Of a stretch of DNA of 56,428 nucleotides, positions 2,861 through 20,227 are shown piece by piece. Position numbers and translations under genes: made by a program. Below the pieces are notes generated by a model, which saw only the letters and a program-made list of their open reading frames with translations, ran no database searches and was not told where the DNA came from. The stretch is from a virus. How positions within the stretch are numbered: the first letter of the stretch is position 1; each line of letters opens with the position of its first letter. The stretch spans positions 1 to 56,428 of IMG/VR virus record IMGVR_UViG_3300046051_000019; one strand, given 5' to 3'.

Positions 2861-3507
2861 TAGTAATCGATACGCGTGAACCGGAGTCGATCACTGAACA
2901 GCTCAGGGAAGAAGCGAGCGACGTCGAAGTCACTGAGGAGCACCTCGATACGGGTGACTTCTTAGCCGGTAGCTATATCGTTGAGCGTAAGCAGTACGGG
3001 GATTTCATTGGTCGCATGACGAACTCGGAGCGCGACGTCTGGCAACAAGTACTCGCGATGGAATCAGCTGCTGACGAGCTCGGGTACACCCCGGTGTTGC
3101 TCCTCGAGGGCGAATGGGCTGAAGCGATGCGATGGTCGAGCTTGACACCGAAAGAACCGACGATGGCGATCGGTAGTATCATGAAACTCGGTATCAGCGT
3201 CGTGCACACGTATGGTCCACGAGCGTCGTGTCAATTACTGGTCAAGCTCGGTGATGACTCGTCGCACGACGTCGGTAGTATCCGGGACTCGCCATCAGTA
3301 CCGCCAGAGATGTACCCGAGGTATATGACTGAGGGGTTTGTTGGCGTCGGCACGGCGCGTGCCGAGGATATCCTGGACAGGTATAGCAGTTTCGCTAGCG
3401 TGGTTCGACAGTTACTCGAGGACCCTGAGGATCTCAAGGAGATACACGGTATCGGTGACGCCACCGTCGAGAAAATGGTCGATATGGTGACGCGGGAATG
3501 GGAGTGA
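2857..3507 (+). CDS. ERCC4 (XPF/Mus81/Hef-type) structure-specific nuclease with C-terminal HhH
   Basis: VIDTRE...GDF...ERK signature and IHGIGDATVEKM hairpin. ATGA overlap with the polB stop codon. Confidence 0.8.
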   Translation: MIVIDTREPESITEQLREEASDVEVTEEHLDTGDFLAGSYIVERKQYGDFIGRMTNSERDVWQQVLAMESAADELGYTPVLLLEGEWAEAMRWSSLTPKEPTMAIGSIMKLGISVVHTYGPRASCQLLVKLGDDSSHDVGSIRDSPSVPPEMYPRYMTEGFVGVGTARAEDILDRYSSFASVVRQLLEDPEDLKEIHGIGDATVEKMVDMVTREWE

Positions 3508-3944: not shown

Positions 3945-4005
3945 CGTTGGGACCTCCTTTCCATTTAGACTAATGGCCGGTATCACAATAAGTCTTTCTC
4001 TTACA
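3945..4005 (-). promoter_or_regulatory. Conserved promoter+leader cassette, copy 1
   Basis: Minus strand reads TGTAAGAGAAAGACTTATTGTGATACCGGCCATTAGTCTAAATGGAAAGGAGGTCCCAACG then ATG. Confidence 0.75.
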
Positions 4006-5612: not shown

Positions 5613-5947
5613 CCCTTGACGGGGACGACTACAGGGCGTTTCTCGAGAAAGTCGGTGACGACGTCGCGGAAGAGTTCAACGAGGAGCTCTTCGGTCACGA
5701 CGCGCATCGACAGATCGAGCTCCCGGACTCGATCGCGAAAGTAGAGCTCCACCACTTATTGAGCGCGCTCATCACCGCTCACAACCACGCGAGTGATAAC
5801 GGTGATTTCTACGATTGCGTGATGTACCACGCGCTCATCACGGAGTTCGCGGAGCTCGACGAGGAACTGTACCGTGAATTCGAGGAAGCACAGAAACGCG
5901 ACCACTCGCTCACCGCGGTTCTCGGCATGGCTGGTGGGCAGGTATGA
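5609..5947 (+). CDS. Hypothetical protein
   Basis: ATGA coupling to the upstream gene. Acidic composition. Confidence 0.6.
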   Translation: MTLDGDDYRAFLEKVGDDVAEEFNEELFGHDAHRQIELPDSIAKVELHHLLSALITAHNHASDNGDFYDCVMYHALITEFAELDEELYREFEEAQKRDHSLTAVLGMAGGQV

Positions 5948-6405
5948 GCGACGACGACGTGTCGCTCGACGACTTCGATTTAACCGCTGGGATGGAATTC
6001 GACATCGACGTCGAGGACATCGAGGAGATGTCGAATCAGCTCCGGCAAGCAGAAGCGTTCGACGTCGAGGAAGCGAGCTCGGAGCGACTCGCAGAGTTCT
6101 CGAGTGCGCTCAAGGAACTCGCGGATCACGTCGAGGACGCTCGGAAAGACGTGTTCGAAGCGCAGCTCGACAAGCGAGTCGAGGTCGACGAAAACGTCGG
6201 ACCGTTGGTGAAGCGTCATGGCAGTCGACGATACGTCGAGAATCGTGAACGCGCGATCCGCGCGTTGGAAGCGAACGACATCGATCCAGTCGCCGCGATG
6301 AAGTTCAACGCGAAAGACCTCGAGGAGATACTTCGAGAACACGGTCTCGACCCACGCGAGCACGTGTCGACGACGGAGTACGAGTACTTCCGGAGGCGCC
6401 GCTGA
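5944..6405 (+). CDS. Hypothetical acidic protein
   Basis: ATGA coupling. 153 aa. Confidence 0.6.
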   Translation: MSDDDVSLDDFDLTAGMEFDIDVEDIEEMSNQLRQAEAFDVEEASSERLAEFSSALKELADHVEDARKDVFEAQLDKRVEVDENVGPLVKRHGSRRYVENRERAIRALEANDIDPVAAMKFNAKDLEEILREHGLDPREHVSTTEYEYFRRRR

Positions 6406-10948: not shown

Positions 10949-12193
10949 ATGAGCATCCTCGAAACCGATCTCGCGGACGTTACCCCTGGGGGTCACGCGG
11001 CTCAAGCACTGCTCCACAAGTACGGTCTCGGCGCGCTCTTCGCCGCTAATGTATTAGGTGCCGGGTCAATATACATCTTATCGCAGACCGGCGCCTCAGT
11101 CGGGTTCACGTTGCTCTGGGTGCTACCGCTCGCGTTCGCTGTGGACATGGTGATGCACGACATGTCGTCGCGACTCGCGGTTAGGGATCGACCCCTAATG
11201 GAGTACATCAGTGACGCGCTCCACGAGCTCACTGGGAGTACACGGATCGGCGTCGCGTATGCCATACTGATGGCGCTCGTCATGCAACTCTGGGCCGTGG
11301 CGAACTACGCCGTAGCCGGCGCCGCGTTCTCGTGGTTCACAGGTGTCAACGTGTACGTCGCGATCCTCGCCGCGTCAAGCATCGGTGTCGTGCTCGTGAT
11401 GACGCGCACGTACAACTATATCGAAGCGGTTATCAGTGCGTTGCTCGTAACCGTGTTCGTTTCCTACGCCGCGTTGTCATTCGGGTTAGACGTCAACACG
11501 GCTGATCTCGTCAGTGGGTTCGTGCCCGGCGACGTGTCGAGCGCGACACTCGTCATCGCGATGCTCGGCACCACGATTTACTATCCGAACTTTTTTATCC
11601 AGAGCTCGATGCAACCGACAAAGGAATGGACGTCACTGAGAAAGTATCGTCGCGACAACGCGGTAGGTATCGCGTTCGCGATACTGATCTCAGTCGGGAT
11701 GCTCGTCGTCGCAGCTGTCGCGCTCGAGCCCGGTGAGCTATCCCTCACAGATCCAGCGATACCGCTCGTCGACTCCGTTGGCGCGTGGACGCTTCCCGTG
11801 TTCATGGCAGCTGTGCTCGCCGCGTCGTTCACATCAGCCACTGGGACGCTATTCGGTTCGTCGTTCGCGGTGCCTCAATCGCTCGGGAAGAAAACGATCT
11901 TTGGCGACACTGTGTTCACCGTGGTCACCGTCGTGCTGATCGGTGTCAGCTCGGTGCTATCCATCTTGGCGCTCGAGTTCACGGAGATGACACCGGTCCG
12001 GATGGCTATCACGATGCCAGCGTTGAACGGCGCGATCTTTCTCCCAGTGACGATCTTAGCGATGTACAACGCGACGGCGTACGAGATGGACGCGTGGCAA
12101 AAAACCGTCTCGGCGATCGCTGTCGTCGTCATGTTCGCGGGATCGATCCTCACAGCCGAGTCGCTGTTCGACACAGTGGTGAGCTTCCTATGA
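10949..12193 (+). CDS. NRAMP-family-like integral membrane transporter with non-canonical substrate-site residues
   Basis: About 11 hydrophobic segments. GLGALFAANVLGAGSIYILSQTGASVGFTLLWVL aligns with NRAMP TM1, with GAGS in place of DPGN. TM6 has YYPN in place of MPHN. Confidence 0.65.
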   Translation: MSILETDLADVTPGGHAAQALLHKYGLGALFAANVLGAGSIYILSQTGASVGFTLLWVLPLAFAVDMVMHDMSSRLAVRDRPLMEYISDALHELTGSTRIGVAYAILMALVMQLWAVANYAVAGAAFSWFTGVNVYVAILAASSIGVVLVMTRTYNYIEAVISALLVTVFVSYAALSFGLDVNTADLVSGFVPGDVSSATLVIAMLGTTIYYPNFFIQSSMQPTKEWTSLRKYRRDNAVGIAFAILISVGMLVVAAVALEPGELSLTDPAIPLVDSVGAWTLPVFMAAVLAASFTSATGTLFGSSFAVPQSLGKKTIFGDTVFTVVTVVLIGVSSVLSILALEFTEMTPVRMAITMPALNGAIFLPVTILAMYNATAYEMDAWQKTVSAIAVVVMFAGSILTAESLFDTVVSFL

Positions 12194-12650: not shown

Positions 12651-13116
12651 AAGTGACGTATCGATCCGGGAGCGAATCAGTGAAGATATCGTCGTTACGC
12701 CTGAACCGGTAGAGGAACAGTTCCAACCGGCGTCGTTCGACGTCAGGCTCGGAGAGCAACTCTACCACGCGGCGACGGACACGACGAGTGTCGACGGGAA
12801 TAGCCACGTACTCGAGCCACGGGAAGCGTACATCGGGCACACGATGGATTACGTCGAGTTACCGCTCGACGTAGCTGCGCAGTTGACTGGCCGGAGTAGT
12901 ATCGGTCGTCAAGGCGTCATTATCCATAAAACCGCTGGGTGGATAGATCCCGGTTTCCGCGGCGAGATCACGCTCGAGCTCTATAATTTCAGTGAAGACC
13001 CCGTTGTTCTCGACGTCGGTAGCCGCGTCGGTCAACTAGTGTTCTTCCAACTCGACCAAGAGAGCACGGGGTACGATGGACAATTTCAAGATCAACTGGG
13101 CCCGACGGCACGGTGA
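12643..13116 (+). CDS. dcd: dCTP deaminase / dUTPase family protein
   Basis: GRSSIGRQG and AGWIDPGFRGEITLELYN signatures. Confidence 0.8.
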   Translation: MLLSDVSIRERISEDIVVTPEPVEEQFQPASFDVRLGEQLYHAATDTTSVDGNSHVLEPREAYIGHTMDYVELPLDVAAQLTGRSSIGRQGVIIHKTAGWIDPGFRGEITLELYNFSEDPVVLDVGSRVGQLVFFQLDQESTGYDGQFQDQLGPTAR

Positions 13117-13150
13117 CTTGTACGAGTTGCGACTCGACTGGAATGTCAAA

Positions 13151-13170
13151 GTGAAAGAAAGACTTATCAT
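13151..13170 (+). promoter_or_regulatory. GTGAAAGAAAGACTTATCAT promoter box
   Basis: Same AAGACTTAT core as the cassette family. Lies about 30 nt upstream of the ATG at 13198. Confidence 0.5.
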
Positions 13171-13197
13171 GGAGCGTGCCTTAGATCCAACCGGACT

Positions 13198-13413
13198 ATG
13201 GACGACATCGCACCAGCGGAGAAAACCAAGGAGTACAGTCAAGCGAAGACGTACGTCGTCACCGAAGCCGAGACCGAAGCAGATGCTCGACGCAGTGCGG
13301 AGACGCAATATCGCGACGAGATCGAGCACCAATTCCTCATCAAGGACTTACAGGCCTTCGTTCGAACGCACCCAAAGGGCTACGAGGTCGCGGTCGTCGC
13401 GAGACTACAGTGA
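13198..13413 (+). CDS. Hypothetical protein
   Basis: 71-aa ORF located after the promoter box. Confidence 0.55.
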   Translation: MDDIAPAEKTKEYSQAKTYVVTEAETEADARRSAETQYRDEIEHQFLIKDLQAFVRTHPKGYEVAVVARLQ

Positions 13414-15218
13414 TGTTCGAATACGATATCGTCGAGAACGAGTACGGGCCACAACTCGCCGTGTCGTTCCAATACGACGAACGAACAATCGAACAGATCA
13501 AGTCACTGAGCTGGGAGACGACGCATCGAGCATGGTCAGAGGACCACGACGCGTGGCTCATCGATTACACCGAGCAGTCGCTCGAAGAATTCCAAGACCA
13601 AATGAACGTCGTTATCCCGCCGCGATACACGCCCAGCGAGGACCACAGCGGCGTGGTTCATGCAGTGGTTCCAGACGAATACGCGTGGTTCTTCCTTCAA
13701 GACCCGTCGAGCGAGATCGATGATTTACTCTGGCAAGAGCTCGCGTACTGGAACGACGCGTACAAGGAACACCAACAACAATGGATTCGACTCTACGATA
13801 CAGATACCCATGGCGCACCGATCGGTCTCCTCGACAAGACACGGAAGCTCGTCGAGGCGAGTGGCTACGAGTTCACAGTTACGTGGAACGGTGACCGAAA
13901 GGGCGGCGCGGTCCAGCTCGACTGGGAGTTCCCCTCGGAGCTCCGCGGATACCAACGAGACGCGATCAACGCCGTGAAAGCGAATGACGGAGGTATCATC
14001 GCGTTACCAACCGGGACCGGGAAAACCGTCACGGCGATGAAACTCCTCGAGGAAGTGTCGCTCGAGATGGGGCGAGGTATCGTTCTCGTGCACACACAAG
14101 AACTGCTTTATCAATGGGAGAGTGAGATCCGCGATGCGCTACGCGTGGAGCCCGGCGTGATTGGCGATGGGAACTGGAGCGAGGGCCCAGTTACGATCGC
14201 GGTGATGCAGACGTTGATGAGCCGTGGCGTGGACGAGCTCGACGAGTCGTATGGCGTCGCGGTGTTTGACGAGTGTCACAGGACATCAGCGGCGGACACG
14301 ATGCACGACATCGGGATGGATTTAAACGTCGCGATGCGTGTCGGGCTCAGCGCGACGCCGTGGCGTCGGATCGAGGGCGAGGAACTCATGATCGAGGGCG
14401 CGGTTGGCGGCGAGGCGCACACCGTTACCGCCGAGGAAATGATCGACGCCGGGTATCTCTCAGAACCGCGATTCGACGTCATCGACCCTCGAGACTACGG
14501 GCGTGTCGACACCGCTAATACCGGTGAAGCGTATCACGACGCGTACCGTCGCTGTATCAGTCTCACCGCGACGAGGAACCGCGCGATCGCGGCGAAAACC
14601 GCGGAGCTCGCCAACCTAGGGTACCAAGTGTTGGTTAACGTGGATCGTATCAAGCACGGGCGTCTCCTCGAGTACGCATTGAACCGAGACGTCGATCACG
14701 ACGACGTCATTGACGCCGTTGACTTCGACGACGCGCAATCGAGGCGCGAGTTCATCAGCGCGTTGCAAGCGACGAGTCGAGTCGCTGATACGAACGCCGA
14801 GTTCATGCACGGCGCTGATACCACTAAGATCCGTCAGGATACACTCGACGAGTTCCAAAACGGTGACCTCGATATCCTCGTCTCGACGCTATTGAGGGAG
14901 GGCGTCGATATCCCGAACATTAGCGCTATCGTTCTCGCGCAAGCAGGGAAAAGCGACGTCAAGCAAATCCAGGTCATCGGGCGAGCGCTACGACCGAAGA
15001 ACGGCGACCACGCTCGCATCGTGGACGTGAACGATACTGGTCGATACTTTCGCAGTCAATTCGAGAAGCGCATAACCGCGATGCGGGAATACTATGGAGA
15101 GTATGGACCGTCTTTGAGTGACTTCGATGTCGAGCCGACATCGGATGATGGACCACCCGAGTCGCGGAGCTTAACTGACGAGCCACCGGAGTCGTTCGAG
15201 GACCTCTATGATAACTGA
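13413..15218 (+). CDS. Superfamily 2 DNA helicase (Rad25/XPB- or type III res-like)
   Basis: ALPTGTGKT, VFDECHR, GLSATPWR and QVIGRALR motifs. TGATG coupling. Confidence 0.85.
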   Translation: MFEYDIVENEYGPQLAVSFQYDERTIEQIKSLSWETTHRAWSEDHDAWLIDYTEQSLEEFQDQMNVVIPPRYTPSEDHSGVVHAVVPDEYAWFFLQDPSSEIDDLLWQELAYWNDAYKEHQQQWIRLYDTDTHGAPIGLLDKTRKLVEASGYEFTVTWNGDRKGGAVQLDWEFPSELRGYQRDAINAVKANDGGIIALPTGTGKTVTAMKLLEEVSLEMGRGIVLVHTQELLYQWESEIRDALRVEPGVIGDGNWSEGPVTIAVMQTLMSRGVDELDESYGVAVFDECHRTSAADTMHDIGMDLNVAMRVGLSATPWRRIEGEELMIEGAVGGEAHTVTAEEMIDAGYLSEPRFDVIDPRDYGRVDTANTGEAYHDAYRRCISLTATRNRAIAAKTAELANLGYQVLVNVDRIKHGRLLEYALNRDVDHDDVIDAVDFDDAQSRREFISALQATSRVADTNAEFMHGADTTKIRQDTLDEFQNGDLDILVSTLLREGVDIPNISAIVLAQAGKSDVKQIQVIGRALRPKNGDHARIVDVNDTGRYFRSQFEKRITAMREYYGEYGPSLSDFDVEPTSDDGPPESRSLTDEPPESFEDLYDN

Positions 15219-15236
15219 CAGAGAAAGACTTATACC
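15217..15236 (+). promoter_or_regulatory. GACAGAGAAAGACTTATACC promoter driving the tRNA and the structured RNA
   Basis: TATA centre lies about 27-30 nt upstream of the tRNA 5' end at 15261. Confidence 0.55.
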
Positions 15237-15260
15237 GTTACGTGTTTAACTTACACTCGA

Positions 15261-15334
15261 TGCGAGGTAGGACAGCTAGGCTACTCCGCACGGCTCATGC
15301 CCGTGAAACCGATGGTTCGAGTCCATCCCTCGCA
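15261..15334 (+). tRNA. tRNA with CAT anticodon (Met, or Ile if C34 is modified)
   Basis: Hand-folded cloverleaf. Acceptor stem TGCGAGG/CCTCGCA. U8 is present and the D loop has GG. Anticodon stem CACGG/CCGTG with loop CTCATGC. T arm GATGG-TTCGAGT-CCATC. Confidence 0.85.
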
Positions 15335-15339
15335 ACTGC

Positions 15340-15447
15340 CCGGCAACCGTGTCAGTTACTTCGAAAGCTCCCGAACACCCTGACACGGATTCACCCGGGC
15401 TTATGGGAACGACGAAGGGTTCGAGTCCCTCCGTTCTCACTTGCCGG
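15340..15447 (+). ncRNA. Structured tRNA-like RNA module A (three-way junction)
   Basis: Closing stem CCGGCAA/TTGCCGG. A 9-bp hairpin pairs 15347-55 with 15380-88. The minihelix is GGGAACG-acg-AAGGG-TTCGAGT-CCCTC-CGTTCTC at 15405-38. No credible ORF. Confidence 0.55.
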
Positions 15448-15548
15448 AGCGAAAACAGCTCGCCGTCTCGGAAGGGACACATCCAGTGACCGCGTACCGT
15501 CGTGCGGACCTGGAGGACTCGCGGGCACACGACGGGCTCCGGCGCACT

Positions 15549-15613
15549 CGGCAAGGGAACCGGTTACTTCGCATCTAGCGCGAGTGACTCGCGTTCGAAT
15601 CGCGACTTGTCGT
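15549..15613 (+). ncRNA. D-arm-less tRNA-like module B with a 7-nt loop AUCUAGC
   Basis: Acceptor stem CGGCAAG/CTTGTCG. Long stem pairs 15563-72 with 15580-88. T arm TCGCG-TTCGAAT-CGCGA. Confidence 0.4.
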
Positions 15614-15688
15614 GCACAGCACGGCAACGTGGTCTAACACGGCATAAGACACTAACACCCGGTTCCCACTCATCCGAGGTACATACCA

Positions 15689-15940
15689 ATGAACGATTTC
15701 AACGTCGAGGTTAAGAAAGACGACGAGCCACGATTACACGTCCCGAGTGACGCGAGATCCGAGCTCAGCGAGGACGAGATAGCGTCCATCACGCGCCAAG
15801 CGATGGATCGATTCGGCGTCGAGACCATCCCGGAGCTCATCGTCACGACGGAGAAAACCATCGAGGAAGAATACGTTCTCGGGACAGTCGAAATCGTCGA
15901 GGACGGCGTCGTGTTCACCGCGAAGGACGAGAGGTTCTAA
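15689..15940 (+). CDS. Hypothetical acidic protein
   Basis: 83-aa ORF immediately upstream of the TROVE gene. Confidence 0.6.
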   Translation: MNDFNVEVKKDDEPRLHVPSDARSELSEDEIASITRQAMDRFGVETIPELIVTTEKTIEEEYVLGTVEIVEDGVVFTAKDERF

Positions 15941-15942
15941 CC

Positions 15943-17478
15943 ATGGACTTGAACTCGTCTAAAACAGAAGCGCGGAACCTCGCTGGTGGCCATCGCCACG
16001 AGATCAATGACCCACTGGAAGCGCTTCGAATGGTCATGATTACCAACTTACTCGAGGACACGTACTACGAGGACGACTCCGAGTCGCTCGAGAAACTCGT
16101 CGAGCGCTTTCAAGCAGCTGCGAACGTGGATCCCGAGTTCCCGTTGCGACTCGCCGCGTGGGCGCGACGAGACGCATACGTTCGAGACGTCCCGCAAGTA
16201 TTACTCGTGCTCAGCGCGCGCCACGACGACGCGAAGCACTACGTTCGACGATACGCGAGCCACGTGATCGATCGAGCCGACGAGCTCTGCACGACGCTCG
16301 CGTTTAACAACACAGTGGCTGGTGACGGCCCGGGTGACTTCTCCGCGACGATTCCATGGGTCTTGAAACGAGCCATTGCTGATGTGATCGAGGACGCGTC
16401 GTTCGACGCGTACCAGTACGCGAAGTACCGACAAGGGCACCGAGCGGTCTCGATGCACGACGTGTTCAACCAAGTGCACCCATATGGGTACGAGGACAGT
16501 CCAGAACCCGTCGAGGGACAATCCGAGATCGCGAATAGGATAACCAAGGGAGGGAAGGACGCGTATCCAGACGTACAGTCTCTCAGCCAGAGACGTACGT
16601 GGGAAGACACCATCAGTGAAGCGGGGCAAGACGGCGACGTCACGGCTGATGACTGGCGCCGCGTGCTCGACGACATGGGGTTATTCGCCCGAGTCCGGAA
16701 CTTACGGAACATGCTCGAAGCTGGGCTGACTGGTGAAGAAATCCTCGAGGACGCGAGCGACGAGTGGATCCGGAACAGTCAACTATACCCGTTCAGGTTT
16801 TACCAAGCACGGAAAGCACTCAAGGGCGCTAGTGAGATGGATCGCTACGTGCACGAGTGGCTTGAGAACGCGGTGAACGTCGCGTGTGAAACCGTGCCAG
16901 ACGAGCTCGTACACACAGCGACGCTCGTGGACCTGTCGGGCTCGATGCAACAACGGGTGTCGAACCGGAGCGACCTTAGTCGCGTCGAGATCGCGGCGTT
17001 GTTCGGCGCGATGCTCGGTCAGAGACGCTCGGATGTCATCGGGTTCGCCGATACAGCGACTCGTGTCCCCGTTGACCCGCTCGAGAACAGTGTGCTCTCG
17101 TTGCAAGAAGCGATCGTGTCCACGGATGTCGGGAGTAGCACGTTCGCTCACAAGGCGCTCGAGTTCATCGCGGACGAGTCTACTGATGGAGAAGTCGTTC
17201 CTGATAGAGTCGTGGTGTTCACTGATTTCCAGATCTGGGAGAGACAGCGGTACGGTAACGACCCGAACGCGTTCCGTGGTGCGTGGGAGATGCTTCGCGA
17301 GATGCACTCCGAGGAACCGTATTTGTACATCGTGGACTTGGCGAGTTACGGCGAGATCAAGCTCCCAGAGAACTACCCGGGCGTCACGAGACTGCAGGGA
17401 TGGAACGACGGCGTGTTGGATTACATCTGGCACGCCGAGAACAGTTTACTAGACGACATTCAAGCGTATGACCCATGA
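15943..17478 (+). CDS. Ro60/Rsr-like TROVE-domain protein with C-terminal vWA domain
   Basis: N-terminus has NLAGGHRHEINDPLEALRMV..TYYED..DPEFPLRLAAWARRDAYVRD, which is TROVE-like. The vWA MIDAS is DLSGSM. Confidence 0.7.
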   Translation: MDLNSSKTEARNLAGGHRHEINDPLEALRMVMITNLLEDTYYEDDSESLEKLVERFQAAANVDPEFPLRLAAWARRDAYVRDVPQVLLVLSARHDDAKHYVRRYASHVIDRADELCTTLAFNNTVAGDGPGDFSATIPWVLKRAIADVIEDASFDAYQYAKYRQGHRAVSMHDVFNQVHPYGYEDSPEPVEGQSEIANRITKGGKDAYPDVQSLSQRRTWEDTISEAGQDGDVTADDWRRVLDDMGLFARVRNLRNMLEAGLTGEEILEDASDEWIRNSQLYPFRFYQARKALKGASEMDRYVHEWLENAVNVACETVPDELVHTATLVDLSGSMQQRVSNRSDLSRVEIAALFGAMLGQRRSDVIGFADTATRVPVDPLENSVLSLQEAIVSTDVGSSTFAHKALEFIADESTDGEVVPDRVVVFTDFQIWERQRYGNDPNAFRGAWEMLREMHSEEPYLYIVDLASYGEIKLPENYPGVTRLQGWNDGVLDYIWHAENSLLDDIQAYDP

Positions 17479-18362
17479 ACCTATACCAGTTACTACGAGC
17501 GCTGCTCGAACGGTTCAGGCGCACTGATAGCGGCGACCAGAGCGACACCAGTAGTGACCAGGACGTCGAAGAGACGCCTGATACTGAGAGCGACGTTAAC
17601 GAGACTGAAGACCCTCCAGTCGAGGAGCACACGCCACCCAGCGACGACGACGAAGAAGAAGAGACGGAGGACGTGAATCGCTCGAGCGACGAGTCGCTCG
17701 ACATCACGTGGCCACCGAACCCGTGCGTGGACCCGCCGCATCGCGGCGTCGGCGACGAGACCATCGAGGTACGACTGTATTGGCGCGTCGGCGACGAGCT
17801 CGGCGAGTGGGCGTGTAAGATGGCGAAGCCCTACGTGGAGTATTGCTACGAGGAAGCCTGGGGCGAGGGCTACGAAGTCGACTGCGTCATCCACCCCGAA
17901 CCGTTACCGATCGATAAAGACTCGCGTGACCATCACGGATCGTGGTTCGTCGCGTTCAAAGAGTACTACTGGCACCAATTAACGTCGGAGAACCGAGCGA
18001 AGCACGCGAACGCGCTCATCGGTCACCTTCCTGGGGTGTACGGGGAGGGCGGTGGGCACTACTGTGTCGTGAACCTTCACAAGCTCGATGGTCCAGTCGA
18101 CCACGAGCCGTGGAGAGACGACGCGTGTATCCGTGAACGGCACTACGGCGGGCTCGGGTACTCGATTAACTCGATGCTACACGAGATCGGGCATTGTCTC
18201 GGGTTGTCCCACGACGACCACGAGCCCGATCAAGACGACTTCGTCGAGGCCTATGGGTATTCACACGTCACCGTGATGAATAACAGTTATCACACTGGGA
18301 ATGGCCAGATTCATATCTTGAGCGATCGAGTCCGTGGCAGGGAACCCGATTTGTCGTACTAG
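17475..18362 (+). CDS. Metzincin-like zinc metalloprotease with an acidic low-complexity N-terminus
   Basis: HEIGHCLGLSHDD matches HExxHxxGxxH(D). ATGA coupling to the TROVE gene. Confidence 0.6.
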   Translation: MNLYQLLRALLERFRRTDSGDQSDTSSDQDVEETPDTESDVNETEDPPVEEHTPPSDDDEEEETEDVNRSSDESLDITWPPNPCVDPPHRGVGDETIEVRLYWRVGDELGEWACKMAKPYVEYCYEEAWGEGYEVDCVIHPEPLPIDKDSRDHHGSWFVAFKEYYWHQLTSENRAKHANALIGHLPGVYGEGGGHYCVVNLHKLDGPVDHEPWRDDACIRERHYGGLGYSINSMLHEIGHCLGLSHDDHEPDQDDFVEAYGYSHVTVMNNSYHTGNGQIHILSDRVRGREPDLSY

Positions 18363-18811
18363 ATGTCGATGGTGTGTCGACAGTTCGGGTAGTTCGAGCA
18401 CCCCCAGAACTCGCCGTGCTCGGATTCGCGACGAGCCATCCACGCTTCGCACTCGTCGCATCGCGGGTTGATAGCTTCTCTCCAGTTGAGCGCCATGTCC
18501 TGGATCTTGGGACGGAGGTTGCTCCGCCACGACTCGATCCTGAGTGTTTTTCTGCGCCCAGAAACTGGGCGGTCGTCCTCGAGGCTCCACACGACGTTTC
18601 GGATCGCGTCGTCCCCGCGGTCGCGAGCGCTCCCGTTTTGGAGCGTCGAGAACACTCGGAGCTCGAGGTCGTCCGTTGGGAGATCGATGGAGTAAACGAC
18701 CTCGTTGACATCGTCCATGTCGACTTCCTCGAATTGAGCGAAGTCGTCGAGGAACTCCTCGAATTCGTCCTGTGCGATGTTGGTGTAGCGTCGCGCCTGT
18801 GATTGTGCCAT
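18359..18811 (-). CDS. Protein with a C-terminal topoisomerase-type C4 zinc finger
   Basis: CDECEAWMARRESEHGEFWGCSNYPNCRHT. The ATG at 18811 follows the conserved leader. Confidence 0.6.
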   Translation of the reverse strand: MAQSQARRYTNIAQDEFEEFLDDFAQFEEVDMDDVNEVVYSIDLPTDDLELRVFSTLQNGSARDRGDDAIRNVVWSLEDDRPVSGRRKTLRIESWRSNLRPKIQDMALNWREAINPRCDECEAWMARRESEHGEFWGCSNYPNCRHTIDI

Positions 18812-18872
18812 CAATGGGACCTCCTGTCCATTTAGACTAATGGCCGGTATCACAATAAGTCTTACTCTTTTT
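18812..18872 (-). promoter_or_regulatory. Conserved promoter+leader cassette, copy 3
   Basis: Minus strand reads AAAAAGAGTAAGACTTATTGTGATACCGGCCATTAGTCTAAATGGACAGGAGGTCCCATTG then ATG. Confidence 0.75.
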
Positions 18873-18894
18873 CATAGACCATGCGCCTAAAGCA

Positions 18895-18908
18895 ACACTT
18901 TTTATCTT
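18895..18908 (+). promoter_or_regulatory. ACACTTTTTATCTT box
   Basis: The same box occurs at 54683-54696 and 54955-54971. A second TATA-like CTATACG at 18933-39 lies 27 nt before the ATG at 18963. Confidence 0.4.
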
Positions 18909-18962
18909 TCAAACACTACCTTCTATACGTTATACCGCTCGTCAAAAAGGTACTGACATCAC

Positions 18963-19817
18963 ATGAACGAACAACAGATCTTGGAGACACTCAGAGACGA
19001 GCCATTCGGCGTCGAGTGGAGCGCTTGGTGCCACCCAGAGACGCTACGCGACCTGCGCGACGACTGCCAATCGCTGCGCACTAAAGACGACCCGATACCA
19101 CCCACGCCACGTGAACGATTCGGCAGGGACTTCGTCGCGGATCCCGCGCTACCGCGCGACGAGTTCTTCGTCTACCCAGAAGACGTAACAGAGTTCATCG
19201 ACGCGTACGTCACGCACCCGCCGCGACGGCTCGTCGAACAACTCATCGAGCGACAAGGCATCGATGCACGCGACGAGGACTACAACACCGTCGTCACGAC
19301 CACGCTCTGGTACAGTCTCGAAGAAACGCGTCACGAGTTCGATGTAGACGCGATCAAGGACGTCGAGCGCATCCCGGCGCTTCGACAGCTCATCGAGCGA
19401 CACGTTCCAGACGACCACCCGCCCGCGTCACCCGAACTCGTCGAGTGGGAGTCGACAAGCGATTATCTCGACGTCGACGTCACGGATACCACGTGGCGAT
19501 GGACCATGGATTACACCGATAGCGACGTCGCGTCGCGTGTACAGTTCAGTTACCGAGTCGCTCACCGAGATTTACTCGAGATGCACGAGGACCACGTTAT
19601 AGGTGCGATGGACGCGTTCGCGAGGCGAGCGATCGACACAGTGAACTCAACTGAGACACGCGAACTCACTGGTTGGCTCACGGAGCACAGTGAGCCACGC
19701 ATAGCGACGGAGCCCGATAGCGGCGAGATCTCGGACGTCCATACGTCTGTTGGAGAAAAAACCATCTCGTACGGTGATTTATACATGCAACCGCGGAGGG
19801 TACCGTCATGTCGCTAG
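18963..19817 (+). CDS. Hypothetical protein
   Basis: 284-aa acidic ORF. Confidence 0.6.
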   Translation: MNEQQILETLRDEPFGVEWSAWCHPETLRDLRDDCQSLRTKDDPIPPTPRERFGRDFVADPALPRDEFFVYPEDVTEFIDAYVTHPPRRLVEQLIERQGIDARDEDYNTVVTTTLWYSLEETRHEFDVDAIKDVERIPALRQLIERHVPDDHPPASPELVEWESTSDYLDVDVTDTTWRWTMDYTDSDVASRVQFSYRVAHRDLLEMHEDHVIGAMDAFARRAIDTVNSTETRELTGWLTEHSEPRIATEPDSGEISDVHTSVGEKTISYGDLYMQPRRVPSCR

Positions 19818-20227
19818 ACGCGCTCCGCGCGTTCAGGAAGCGATTCTTCACGAAACCCCGGCCCTCAGGGAGGTACTTCCTCGCCGACGCCACCGTGAGC
19901 GACGTGACGCGCGCCCTCGGGACACAGTCGTTCGCGCCGAACTGGGAGTACAGTTACAACTATCGCGGTGAAGACGTCAACCTCGCGAGAGTAGTCTACG
20001 AGGAACACCGCGGCGTCGAGTGGTGGCAAACACACGTCAGGGGGTGGATCGCTGACGACGGCGTCGAGCTCAGCGCGCACTGGGAACCCGAGCCCACCGA
20101 GCACCCCTCGATGCATCTCAGCGGTGACGCGTGTACCGTCACTCGCGGCGAAGAAGAGTTACGCGCCGCGCTTGACGCGATCGAGTACATGGAGTTTATT
20201 TGGGACGAGACTCGATCACTCGGATAG
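19808..20227 (+). CDS. Hypothetical protein
   Basis: 139-aa ORF overlapping the upstream gene by 10 nt. Confidence 0.55.
   Translation: MSLDALRAFRKRFFTKPRPSGRYFLADATVSDVTRALGTQSFAPNWEYSYNYRGEDVNLARVVYEEHRGVEWWQTHVRGWIADDGVELSAHWEPEPTEHPSMHLSGDACTVTRGEEELRAALDAIEYMEFIWDETRSLG

What the first reader, a model, noticed from the sequence alone, without database searches (positions are those of the whole stretch)
15217..17478. Ro60-like (TROVE+vWA) protein downstream of tRNA(CAT) and about 350 nt of tRNA-like structured RNA: candidate Ro/Y-RNA module in an archaeal virus
Seen in the sequence:
- 15943..17478 encodes a 511-aa protein. Its N-terminal two thirds read like the TROVE module of Ro60/Rsr. 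Its C-terminus is a vWA domain with an intact MIDAS (DLSGSM).
- About 700 nt upstream, a strong AAGACTTATA promoter box lies about 27 nt before a canonical tRNA(CAT) at 15261..15334.
- The tRNA is followed by 15335..15688, which contains only Arg/Pro-rich junk frames but dense helices.
- One helix set is a 7-bp closing stem (15340-46 with 15441-47). It encloses a 9-bp hairpin and an acceptor+T-arm minihelix at 15405..15438.
- An 8-bp helix CCGTCGTG/CACGACGG pairs 15497-504 with 15528-35.
- A second tRNA-like unit lies at 15549..15613.

Established knowledge:
- Ro60 orthologues act as RNPs with Y RNAs.
- Bacterial Y RNA genes sit next to rsr, and YrlA-type Y RNAs carry a tRNA-mimicking domain.
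- Some mycobacteriophages carry Ro plus Y RNA.

Inference: this virus encodes its own Ro-type RNP with tRNA-like partner RNAs. It could serve RNA quality control, or act as a decoy or repair device against tRNA/rRNA-targeting host defences. I am not aware of this being described for archaeal viruses.
Basis: partly seen in the sequence, partly recalled or inferred. Interest (0 to 1): 0.85.

Follow-up and report, generated by a model that had tools for sequence, protein, structure and literature searches.

The report
Haloarchaeal virus Ro60 with Y RNAs
A tailed virus of salt-loving archaea carries a gene for a Ro60-type RNA-binding ring protein and, just upstream, two small structured RNAs built like bacterial Y RNAs (one with a tRNA-shaped domain), which extends the Ro60–Y RNA partnership to archaea and their viruses.

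Summary

**Protein.** 15943..17478 encodes a full-length Ro60 orthologue:
- Pfam TROVE, E 2e-21.
- A vWA domain with an intact MIDAS.
- An AlphaFold model whose 13 best PDB matches are all Ro60.

**RNA.** Rfam finds only the tRNA(CAT) upstream, but eight related viral contigs show a recurring module:
stem1–CAA–stem2–UUACUUCG–[insert]–stem2'–AYUCAY–stem1'
- The stems co-vary strongly.
- In five relatives the module gives sub-threshold hits to Rfam YrlA (Y RNA-like).
- A covariance model built from the relatives alone finds exactly two hits in the 56-kb window.
  - 15546..15679: 90.9 bits, E 2e-24. It has V, T, closed acceptor and D arms, as in YrlA.
  - 15338..15400: 43 bits, E 1e-10. It has the stem module only.
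- The same model hits just upstream of TROVE genes in about 45 of 54 haloarchaeal genome loci, next to large tRNA arrays.

- The proposed 7-bp closing stem is not the conserved fold.
- 15401..15545 has no comparative support.
- Ro60 genes in archaeal viruses had already been noted (HGTV-1, Asgard viruses, Borgs). The Y RNAs had not.

Expression, Ro binding and function are inferred, not shown.

The parts
15221..15236 (+). Archaeal BRE/TATA-type promoter box (GAGAAAGACTTATACC) for the RNA array and probably the downstream genes
   Evidence: The exact box lies 25 nt upstream of the tRNA. The box type occurs 10 times in the window against 1.04 expected, mostly on the + strand in intergenic positions. 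Similar AGAAAGAYTTAWA boxes lie about 35-40 nt upstream of the first RNA element in L003, L004, L005, L006, L009 and L010. Function is inferred.
15261..15336 (+). tRNA(CAT), first gene of the array. Its 3' end lies 1-2 nt from Y RNA #1.
   Evidence: ARAGORN. Rfam tRNA 52.7 bits, E 3e-10. Relative L004 has the same arrangement, tRNA-Met(CAT) followed 2 nt later by a Y-like RNA. The anticodon loop CUCAUGC has an unusual G37.
15338..15400 (+). Y RNA-like #1 (short form, no tRNA-like domain). Layout: stem1 15338-43/15395-400; CAA 15344-46; stem2 15347-55/15380-88; UUAC 15356-59; small V hairpin UUCG 15360-63/CGAA 15372-75; 3' loop AUUCAC 15389-94.
   Evidence: Model R1, built without the window, scores 43.1 bits, E 1.3e-10. 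The module finder finds it, with 0 hits in 20 shuffled windows. Folding z = -6.0. Core stems co-vary across 16 copies. Identical in the 97% relative L002.
15405..15438 (+). tRNA-like minihelix: 7-bp acceptor-like stem 15405-11/15432-38 plus T arm 15416-30 with loop UUCGAGU. Possible RNase P/tRNase Z processing signal.
   Evidence: Weak Rfam mascRNA-like hit, 18.1 bits, E 1.3. Present in the MFE fold. Folding z only -1.3. No homologue beyond the T loop in relatives. The role is inferred.
15443..15543 (+). Structured spacer of unknown role: closing stem 15443-50/15536-43 and 8-bp helix 15497-504/15528-35.
   Evidence: MFE fold, z -2.1. No homologue in relatives. The only two substitutions against L002 in the whole RNA region (15468, 15496) fall here, at positions unpaired in the MFE fold. 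No comparative support.
15546..15679 (+). Y RNA-like #2 (YrlA-type, with tRNA-like domain). Layout: stem1 15547-51/15674-78; CAA 15552-54; stem2 15555-63/15659-67; UUAC 15564-67; V hairpin 15568-72/15580-84; T arm 15589-15605; closed acceptor-like hairpin 15607-27; D arm 15632-50; 3' loop ACUCAU 15668-73.
   Evidence: Model R1, built without the window, scores 90.9 bits, E 1.9e-24, full length. Folding z = -6.2. Aligns with homologues in L003-L010. All five helices co-vary in 31 sequences. ARAGORN's 'tRNA-Pyl' call at 15540..15613 is this domain. No Rfam YrlA hit even at E<=10.
15689..15940 (+). 83-aa acidic ORF between Y RNA #2 and the Ro60 gene. Its start codon lies 9 nt after the Y RNA.
   Evidence: ORF list. 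No Pfam family. Present in L002 with 10 substitutions, 5 of them at third codon positions. Absent from the same position in L003, L004, L007, L009 and L010, where the TROVE gene follows the last Y RNA directly.
15943..17478 (+). Ro60 orthologue (TROVE/HEAT-repeat ring plus vWA domain with MIDAS)
   Evidence: Pfam TROVE E 2.1e-21 and VWA_2 E 1.6e-5. PDB sequence hit to Thermus phage phiLo Ro60 (9KOP/9L5Y), E 1.1e-23, residues 36-495. AlphaFold2 model pLDDT 75.8. Foldseek top 13 hits are all Ro60: 9KOP TM 0.73/0.80, Xenopus 1YVP 0.66, Deinococcus 2NVO 0.65, human 9NEN 0.64. MIDAS residues are invariant.

Best explanation
The locus is a viral Ro60–Y RNA module.

**Proposed mechanism**
1. One promoter (15221..15236) drives a polycistronic transcript: tRNA(CAT) – short Y RNA (15338..15400) – tRNA-like minihelix – spacer – YrlA-type Y RNA (15546..15679) – mRNA for an 83-aa protein and Ro60.
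2. The small RNAs are cut out by the host tRNA-processing enzymes RNase P and tRNase Z, because they abut tRNAs or tRNA-like elements with spacers of 0-4 nt.
3. Ro60 binds the conserved basal stem of each Y RNA at the GGCAA(G/C) / A(C/U)UCA(U/C) internal loop. This is the counterpart of the bacterial GNCGAA motif.
4. The tRNA-shaped domain of Y RNA #2 gates the Ro60 cavity and tethers the ring to a host factor that recognises tRNA shape. Haloarchaea lack an exosome, and I know of no PNPase in them, so an RNase R-type exoribonuclease is the most likely effector.
5. The RNP then degrades or handles structured or damaged RNAs (tRNA, rRNA) during infection.

**Shown here**
- The Ro60 identity of the protein.
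- The existence, boundaries, strand, covariation and TROVE linkage of the two Y-like RNAs.
- The YrlA-like architecture of #2.
- The promoter-box recurrence, and the absence of a T-run of 5 or more between the array and the genes.

**Inferred**
- Transcription and processing.
- Ro60 binding.
- The identity of the effector.
- The benefit to the virus.
For: **Protein**
- Searches support a Ro60 orthologue by sequence and fold.

**RNA family**
- The motif CAA-N9-NUACNUCG, with complementary stems and an AYUCAY loop, occurs 18 or more times in 8 viral-type loci. Every copy is on the TROVE strand. None appears in shuffled windows.
- In 16 core copies, 13 of 15 pairs change on both sides and 97% of cells pair. 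The covariation score is 0.94 against 0.25 for shuffles, with 0 of 500 shuffles as high.
- In 31 full copies, 29 of 31 pairs change on both sides across stem1, stem2 and the T, acceptor and D helices.
- A model built with the window left out finds only the two window elements. With filters off, the next best hit is 8.4 bits.

**Link to known Y RNAs**
- Rfam YrlA hits of E 6.5e-6 to 1.6e-3 coincide with the modules in L004, L005, L006, L007 and L010. Two cellular loci, L057 and L012, also hit. Several alignments are full length.
- The features Chen et al. 2014 (PMC4201824) defined are present: same strand and within 4 kb of Ro60; a 5' GNCGAA-like motif; YUAY (here UUAC) opening the V loop; T, closed AS and D arms.

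**Generality**
- The model hits 150-500 nt upstream of TROVE in about 45 of 54 haloarchaeal loci.

**Processing and co-transcription**
- tRNA–Y spacers are 0-4 nt in the window, L003, L004, L007 and L010.
- Promoter boxes recur and are conserved in position.
- There is no T-run of 5 or more in 15200..18400.

**Effector**
- Haloarchaea lack exosome subunits, and RNase R is their candidate nuclease for structured RNA (PMC2841640).
Against: - The window elements do not match Rfam YrlA or Y_RNA at all, even at E<=10. Relatives stay far below the 69-bit gathering score.
- The putative Ro-binding motif is GGCAA, not GNCGAA.
- There are no expression, processing or binding data of any kind.
- The last Y-like module always ends 7-12 nt before a start codon. 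That fits a cis-acting leader as well as a free sRNA.
- No RNA-repair gene (RtcB, kinase-phosphatase) was found among the window genes scanned.
- The covariation counts come from copies selected or aligned by their ability to pair, so percent-paired values are inflated.
Confidence: 0.8

Rival explanations
1. The Y-like modules are cis-acting leader or operator elements of the Ro60 mRNA rather than free small RNAs. Ro60 would bind the module next to the start codon and autoregulate its own translation or mRNA stability.
For: The last module ends 7-12 nt before the next start codon in the window (15679 to 15689), L003, L004, L007, L009 and L010, and in HGTV-1 (5952 to 5965). In L005 it overlaps the start codon. 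No terminator-like T-run separates the RNA from the ORFs.
Against: - There are 2-4 copies per locus. Most lie far from any ORF and are interleaved head-to-tail with tRNAs.
- In cellular loci a tRNA-Arg lies between the Y-like RNAs and TROVE.
- In the window the adjacent ORF is an unrelated 83-aa gene, not Ro60.
- The two roles are not exclusive.
Confidence: 0.12
2. The elements are decayed or unusual tRNA genes within a viral tRNA cluster (pseudogenes or permuted pre-tRNAs that the archaeal splicing machinery matures). They would have no specific relation to Ro60.
For: - ARAGORN calls 15540..15613 a tRNA(cta).
- The loci are rich in tRNAs.
- The T–acceptor–D order resembles circularly permuted tRNAs, a similarity noted for YrlA itself.
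Against: - The Rfam tRNA model does not match either element.
- The conserved, co-varying part is a non-tRNA stem with the invariant loops CAA/AYUCAY and UUACUUCG.
- The short form has no tRNA-like arms at all.
- There is no anticodon loop, and the internal loop (3 nt opposite 6 nt) is not a bulge-helix-bulge splice motif.
- The family tracks TROVE genes across about 45 of 54 cellular loci.
Confidence: 0.04
3. The RNAs are real and Ro-associated, but they act mainly as tRNA-shaped decoys or sensors against host tRNA-targeting defence nucleases, together with the virus-encoded tRNA. On this view they are not tethers to an exoribonuclease.
For: - The family is linked to tRNA arrays on mobile elements and viruses.
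- Ro60 has been proposed as part of RNA-repair platforms in jumbo phages, and of tRNA protection in Borgs.
- HGTV-1 has RtcB and a nucleotidyltransferase near its TROVE gene.
Against: - No repair enzyme was found among the window genes scanned.
- The tRNA-like domain has no anticodon loop, which is the usual nuclease target.
- The short Y RNA lacks the tRNA-like domain.
- There is no experimental evidence.
Confidence: 0.15

Closest known systems
Bacterial and phage YrlA-type Y RNAs with Rsr/Ro60 (Rfam RF02553; Chen et al. 2014, PMC4201824; Wang et al. 2018, bioRxiv 10.1101/312249)
   Same: - The RNA is encoded within a few hundred nt of the Ro60 gene on the same strand.
- The 5' and 3' ends form a long basal stem carrying a conserved motif on the 5' strand.
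- YUAY (here UUAC) opens a V hairpin.
- T arm, closed acceptor-like hairpin and D arm follow in permuted-tRNA order.
- There is no anticodon loop and no free CCA end.
- A second, shorter Y RNA lies in the same locus, as with Salmonella YrlB.
   Different: - The motif is GGCAA(G/C) instead of GNCGAAN0-1G.
- A conserved 3'-strand loop AYUCAY and an invariant UUACUUCG are present.
- In some copies, including the window's, the D arm has the form GUCU...AGAC rather than GCUC...GAGC.
- The window RNAs score nothing against RF02553, and relatives reach only 27-42 bits against the 69-bit threshold.
- Copies are embedded head-to-tail in tRNA arrays.
- The host domain lacks an exosome, so the effector must differ.
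Thermus phage phiLo Ro60 with Yrl1/Yrl2 (PMC12135203; PDB 9KOP, 9L5Y)
   Same: - It is a virus-encoded Ro60 with two Y RNA-like genes just upstream.
- It is the closest solved structure to the window protein (E 1e-23; TM 0.73/0.80).
   Different: - Only 23% identity.
- The phiLo Yrls were identified by a CGAA motif and bind host PNPase, which I do not expect a haloarchaeal host to have.
- It is a bacterial, not an archaeal, virus.
Haloarchaeal tRNA gene clusters with a TROVE gene (Morgado & Vicente 2019, PMC6333295) and HGTV-1 gene 129
   Same: - They carry homologous TROVE proteins (40-45% identity) beside tRNA arrays on mobile elements and viruses.
- The same Y-like RNA family lies between the tRNAs and the TROVE gene.
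   Different: - Those reports list only the protein and the tRNAs. No Y RNA was described.
- The window virus has a reduced version: one tRNA and two Y RNAs, against 13-16 tRNAs in the ten cellular loci scanned.
mascRNA/MALAT1-type tRNA-like processing signals
   Same: The minihelix 15405..15438 (acceptor-like stem plus T arm) directly follows an RNA whose 3' end it could define through RNase P cleavage. It gives a weak Rfam mascRNA-like alignment.
   Different: The match is only 18 bits (E 1.3), has no comparative support, and comes from a eukaryotic family. This is an analogy only.

Membership tests
Ro60 / TROVE protein family | TROVE domain above the Pfam gathering score | tested here: met
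   PF05731: 77 bits against a cut-off of 23, E 2.1e-21.
Ro60 / TROVE protein family | C-terminal vWA domain with MIDAS (DxSxS...T...D) | tested here: met
   VWA_2 E 1.6e-5, 26 bits, just under its 27-bit cut-off. D330, S332, S334, T400 and D428 are invariant in 20 homologues. The model shows an alpha/beta fold that matches vWA domains.
Ro60 / TROVE protein family | Overall Ro60 fold (helical-repeat ring closed by the vWA domain) | tested here: met
   AlphaFold2 model pLDDT 75.8, pTM 0.67. The Foldseek top 13 PDB hits are all Ro60, aligned over about 500 columns, TM 0.63-0.80. Ring closure itself was not measured.
Ro60 / TROVE protein family | Binds Y RNA and misfolded RNA | not testable with these tools
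   Needs EMSA or RIP.
YrlA-type Y RNA (Rfam RF02553) | Score at or above the Rfam gathering threshold (69 bits) | tested here: not met
   No YrlA hit in the window at E<=10, even on a 155-nt slice. Homologous modules in relatives reach 27-42 bits, E 6.5e-6 to 0.12.
YrlA-type Y RNA (criteria of Chen et al. 2014) | Encoded within 4 kb of the Ro60 gene on the same strand | tested here: met
   Y#1 ends 542 nt and Y#2 ends 263 nt upstream of the Ro60 start codon, both on the + strand.
YrlA-type Y RNA (criteria of Chen et al. 2014) | 5' motif GNCGAAN0-1G (putative Ro-binding site) in a stem formed by the 5' and 3' ends | tested here: inconclusive
   The basal stem is present and co-varies. The motif is the one-base-shorter variant GGCAAC (#1) or GGCAAG (#2). 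Cellular homologues carry GUCGAA or GUCAAG at the same place.
YrlA-type Y RNA (criteria of Chen et al. 2014) | YUAY opening the V loop, then T arm, closed acceptor-like stem-loop and D arm | tested here: met
   Y#2 has UUAC 15564-67, V 15568-84, T 15589-15605, AS 15607-27 and D 15632-50. These helices co-vary in 31 sequences. Y#1 has UUAC and V only, so it is a short, YrlB-like form.
YrlA-type Y RNA (criteria of Chen et al. 2014) | Stable RNA bound by Ro60 in vivo; tRNA-type modifications | not testable with these tools
   Needs RNA-seq or northern blots, RIP, and modification mapping.
Canonical tRNA (for the ARAGORN 'tRNA-Pyl(cta)' call at 15540..15613) | Cloverleaf with anticodon arm, matching the Rfam tRNA model | tested here: not met
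   No RF00005 hit at E<=10. The supposed anticodon arm is the V hairpin of the Y-like RNA, and the 'acceptor' 5' strand is part of the basal stem.
Metazoan Y RNA (Rfam RF00019) | Match to the Y_RNA model | tested here: not met
   No hit in the window or in the relatives.

The most novel reading that the evidence does not exclude
Haloarchaea and their tailed viruses have a Y RNA family of their own. It is matured by tRNA-processing enzymes from tRNA-punctuated arrays. Its Ro60 RNP works without an exosome, probably with RNase R or another factor that recognises tRNA shape. On viruses and plasmids, the tRNA–Y RNA–Ro60 cassette would be a mobile device that keeps the tRNA/rRNA pool usable when the host attacks or shuts down translation.
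Probability: 0.25. Interest if true: 0.8.

Novelty: new variant of a known kind. Interest (0 to 1): 0.62.

Why it matters
**What is new.** Y RNAs are established Ro60 partners in animals, bacteria and phages. For archaea, only the protein gene had been noted, in the literature I could search. This locus and its relatives define a divergent YrlA-like family that standard Rfam annotation misses. The family is present in a haloarchaeal virus lineage, probably in the cultured virus HGTV-1, and in most of the haloarchaeal TROVE loci sampled.

**Why it helps.**
- It makes the Ro60–Y RNA partnership testable in the third domain of life.
- It does so in organisms that lack an exosome. That could help identify the long-sought effector of the tRNA-like domain.
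- It may explain why TROVE genes travel with tRNA arrays on archaeal mobile elements.

**Practical use.** The covariance model and the motif GGCAA-N9-NUACUUCG…AYUCAY give a direct way to annotate these RNAs.

Tried and rejected
- **Rfam on the window.** At E<=10, over 1.2 kb and then over 155 nt, it found only the tRNA, with no Y_RNA or YrlA hit. Direct family assignment therefore failed, and the link came through relatives.
- **DNA search of the locus against 50,697 phage records.** No match. Protein-level search was needed.
- **The strict regex module finder on 54 cellular loci.** It found nothing credible, because cellular copies use UCGA/UCAA and AGUUUUC loops. The covariance model recovered them.
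Rejected as the functional fold. It would pair the invariant CAA, and no relative conserves it.
- **A third Y-like RNA in 15443..15543** (it contains CGAA). There is no model hit at E<=10 with filters off and no homologue in relatives, so it stays unexplained.
- **Permuted or split tRNA reading.** Rejected: no anticodon loop, no bulge-helix-bulge motif, and no tRNA model match.
- **RNA-repair partners in the window.** I scanned the locus neighbours, five larger genes further downstream and most larger ORFs in the first 24 kb. I found DNA polymerase B, ERCC4 nuclease, pyrimidine-dimer glycosylase, UDG, dCTP deaminase, helicase, Nramp, portal and tape-measure proteins, but no RtcB or kinase-phosphatase.
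- **Two papers could not be opened**: the HGTV-1 genome paper and the 2020 Annual Review on bacterial Ro60. I cannot exclude that they mention archaeal Y RNAs.

Full report
**1. Context**

The window is the genome, or most of it, of a tailed virus.
- It encodes a family B DNA polymerase, a portal protein, a tape-measure protein and a primase-polymerase.
- Its weak capsid-module matches are to Halorubrum and Natrinema viruses.
- Its proteins are acidic, as in haloarchaea.
- A 97%-identical Ro60 gene lies on a 55.5-kb IMG/VR contig, L002.
- The locus DNA matches no deposited phage record.

**2. The protein**

ORF 15943..17478 (+, 511 aa) is a Ro60 orthologue.
- *Domains.* It matches Pfam TROVE (77 bits, E 2.1e-21) and VWA_2 (E 1.6e-5).
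- *MIDAS.* The residues D330-x-S332-x-S334, T400 and D428 are invariant among 20 homologues.
- *Closest solved structure.* By sequence it is Ro60 of Thermus phage phiLo (9KOP/9L5Y), E 1.1e-23 over residues 36-495.
- *Fold.* An AlphaFold2 model (pLDDT 75.8) has Ro60 structures as its 13 best PDB matches: phage, Xenopus, human and Deinococcus, TM 0.63-0.80. After these come isolated vWA domains.
- *Relatives.* The nearest are metagenomic viral-type contigs (55-97% identity). Next come HGTV-1 gene 129 (40.8%; annotated 'RNA-binding protein, TROVE domain') and many haloarchaeal chromosomal or plasmid TROVE proteins (40-45%).

**3. The upstream RNA region in the window alone**

- ARAGORN and Rfam confirm tRNA(CAT) at 15261..15336.
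- 15336..15690 folds far better than shuffles on the + strand (z -5.5). The minus strand gives z -2.4.
- Rfam reports no Y_RNA or YrlA match, even at E<=10.
- ARAGORN's 'tRNA-Pyl(cta)' at 15540..15613 is not confirmed by the tRNA covariance model.

**4. Relatives supply the evidence**

I fetched the contigs that encode the eight closest Ro60 homologues (L003-L010).
- Wherever upstream sequence is held, there is a stretch of 260-1,600 nt upstream of the TROVE gene with no called gene or only unannotated calls overlapping RNA genes. It is often downstream of the same helicase as in the window.
- That stretch contains tRNAs.
- In five loci Rfam YrlA ('Y RNA-like') gives hits with E from 6.5e-6 to 1.6e-3. 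Two of these are full-length alignments that include the outer stems.
- In L004 such a hit directly follows a tRNA-Met(CAT), which is the window's arrangement.

Reading these regions side by side reveals a repeated module:

5'-stem1 (5-7 bp) – CAA – stem2 (9 bp) – N-UAC-UUCG – variable insert – stem2' – A(C/U/A)UCA(U/C) – stem1'-3'

- A pattern-plus-pairing finder locates 18 clean copies in eight loci. All are on the TROVE strand. Twenty shuffled windows yield none.
- The window has exactly two copies, at 15338..15400 and 15546..15679.

**5. Covariation**

In 16 equal-length core copies:
- CAA, UAC-UCG and the CA of the 3' loop are invariant, while the stems differ freely.
- 97% of cells pair, and 13 of 15 pairs show changes on both sides.
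- The covariation score is 0.94, against 0.25 for shuffles (0 of 500 as high) and at most 0.17 for slid registers.
- Caveat: the copies were selected for complementarity, so percent-paired is circular. The diversity of pair types and the zero background in shuffles are not.

In full-length copies:
- The insert consists of a V hairpin whose 5' strand is the conserved UUCG, a T arm (GGUUCRAAUCC type), a closed acceptor-like hairpin and a D arm.
- This is the permuted-tRNA order that defines YrlA (PMC4201824; bioRxiv 10.1101/312249).

**6. Leave-the-window-out test**

I built covariance model R1 from ten full modules of relatives only, with 31 specified pairs.
- Over the whole window on both strands it finds two hits. 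One is 15546..15679 at 90.9 bits, E 1.9e-24, full length. The other is 15338..15400 at 43.1 bits, E 1.3e-10, where the tRNA-like part is replaced by 16 nt.
- With filters off over 13000..20000, the next best score is 8.4 bits.

Resulting anatomy:
- *Y RNA #2* has every element. These are stem1 15547-51/15674-78, CAA, stem2 15555-63/15659-67, UUAC, V 15568-84, T arm 15589-15605, acceptor-like hairpin 15607-27 (9 bp, ACA loop), D arm 15632-50 and ACUCAU.
- *Y RNA #1* has the basal module, UUAC and a 4-bp V hairpin only. That makes it a short form comparable to a YrlB-type partner.
- Both fold with z of about -6.
- Both are identical in the 97% relative L002. The flanking genes carry about 3% substitutions, and the whole 470-nt RNA region carries two.

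**7. What is not supported**

- *The 7-bp 'closing stem'.* The pairing 15340-46/15441-47 would pair the invariant CAA and has no counterpart in relatives. The conserved closing stem is 15338-43/15395-400.
- *The minihelix 15405..15438.* It is a convincing acceptor-plus-T-arm mimic by eye. Its support is weak: z -1.3, a weak mascRNA-like hit, and no homologues beyond the T loop.
It has z -2.1 and no homologues, and it holds the only two substitutions against L002, both at unpaired positions. I leave it unexplained.

**8. Generality**

R1 hits 150-500 nt upstream of the TROVE gene, on the same strand, in about 45 of 54 haloarchaeal genome loci.
- The stronger copy scores 60-84 bits in 20 of these loci. 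Most loci also have a weaker copy (23-46 bits) just upstream of that position.
- Cellular copies have the same architecture with variant loops, for example GUCGAA or GUCAAG on the 5' strand. The first matches the bacterial GNCGAA motif exactly.
- In the ten loci scanned with ARAGORN, most show the conserved order tRNA array (13-16 tRNAs) – Y – Y – tRNA-Arg(TCG) – TROVE – tRNA-Gly(GCC). Several of the 54 loci are on plasmids.
- Across 31 viral and cellular copies, 29 of 31 pairs change on both sides. That alignment was fitted to the model.
- HGTV-1 has weaker candidates. One (14.5 bits) ends 13 nt before its TROVE gene.

**9. Mechanism**

*Shown.*
- A promoter-type box precedes the array. It recurs 10 times in the window against about 1 expected, and it is conserved in position in relatives.
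- No run of five or more T separates the array from the ORFs.
- Y RNAs abut tRNAs with 0-4 nt spacers in five loci.
- The last module ends 7-12 nt before a start codon in most loci.

*Inferred.*
- There is one primary transcript, punctuated by RNase P and tRNase Z.
- Ro60 binds the GGCAA/AYUCAY internal loop, by analogy with GGUCCGA in Xenopus and GNCGAA in bacteria.
- The tRNA-like domain gates the ring and tethers it to an effector.
- Haloarchaea lack the exosome and rely on RNase R for structured RNA (PMC2841640). That archaea also lack PNPase rests on my own knowledge. The bacterial Ro60–Y RNA–PNPase machine therefore cannot be copied, and RNase R is my candidate effector.
- The benefit to the virus is open. 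It could be RNA quality control under infection stress, or protection of the translation apparatus against host nucleases.

**10. Comparison with what is known, and novelty**

- Ro60 plus Y RNA-like genes are known in mycobacteriophages, CcrColossus, Bacillus phage G and Thermus phage phiLo.
- TROVE/Ro60 genes have been noted in haloarchaeal tRNA clusters, Asgard viruses, Borgs and HGTV-1. None of the papers or annotations I could read identifies a Y RNA.
- My full-text searches for archaeal Y RNAs or YrlA found nothing.
- The elements meet the architectural criteria of YrlA but fail the Rfam threshold and use a variant motif. I therefore call them a divergent variant that works like YrlA, not a member of RF02553 as curated.

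**11. Verdict**

- The structural details needed revision.
- The claim that this is a first for archaeal viruses holds only for the RNA partner.
- Interest is moderate to high.
  - It extends a well-studied RNP to the third domain of life and its viruses.
  - It yields a searchable model.
  - It offers an exosome-free system in which to find the effector.
  - The kind of system is known, and nothing here has been tested experimentally.

Noticed in passing
window 15292-15298 (anticodon loop of the tRNA at 15261..15336); L004 3630-3704: The tRNA(CAT) has the anticodon loop CUCAUGC, that is G37 and C38 where Met and Ile2 tRNAs normally have A37. The tRNA(CAT) preceding the Y RNA in relative L004 has the same loop. 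Its decoding identity (initiator, elongator or Ile2-like) is unclear.
   Followed up: partly
window 3985-4000(-), 4552, 13155, 15221, 22948, 23122, 23968, 24559, 25944, 55660 (+): A box of the type GAGAAAGACTTAT(A/T) recurs 10 times against 1.04 expected. It is probably the virus's general BRE/TATA promoter, clustered in the 22.9-26 kb region.
   Followed up: partly
L001 (HGTV-1, NC_021328) 3054-3207 and 5866-5952: The cultured halovirus HGTV-1 has weaker matches to the Y-like model. One (26 bits) overlaps the annotated 'tRNA-Asp + intron'. The other (14.5 bits, E 0.006) ends 13 nt before its TROVE gene 129. RtcB and a nucleotidyltransferase lie nearby.
   Followed up: partly
L011-L064 (haloarchaeal genome loci), about 2450-2950 of each 7.5-kb locus: In the ten loci scanned for tRNAs, most show a cassette conserved across genera and on several plasmids: tRNA array of 13-16 genes – two Y-like RNAs – tRNA-Arg(TCG) – TROVE – tRNA-Gly(GCC). 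The published description of these tRNA clusters mentions the TROVE gene but no Y RNA.
   Followed up: partly
window 15689-15940: An 83-aa acidic ORF with no family match sits between Y RNA #2 and the Ro60 gene. At that position L003, L004, L007, L009 and L010 have the TROVE start codon directly. L006 has a different small Cys-rich ORF there.
   Followed up: partly
window 10949-12193: The virus encodes an Nramp-type divalent-metal transporter (Pfam E 1.7e-30). This is an unusual auxiliary gene for a haloarchaeal virus.
   Followed up: no
window 17475-18362: The gene overlapping the Ro60 stop codon encodes a 295-aa protein with an acidic N-terminus and an HExxH motif. It gives only weak metallopeptidase matches (Astacin E 0.001, below cut-off). 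Relatives do not have it at that position.
   Followed up: no
window 15443-15543: This GC-rich structured spacer contains a CGAA and an 8-bp helix. It has no homologue in any relative and holds the only two substitutions against the 97% relative, both at unpaired positions. Its origin and role are unknown.
   Followed up: yes
L048 1690-1863 and 7242-7410(-): There are strong matches to the Rfam family sot0042 (202 and 74 bits) flanking the tRNA/TROVE cassette in Natrialba sp. SSL1.
   Followed up: no
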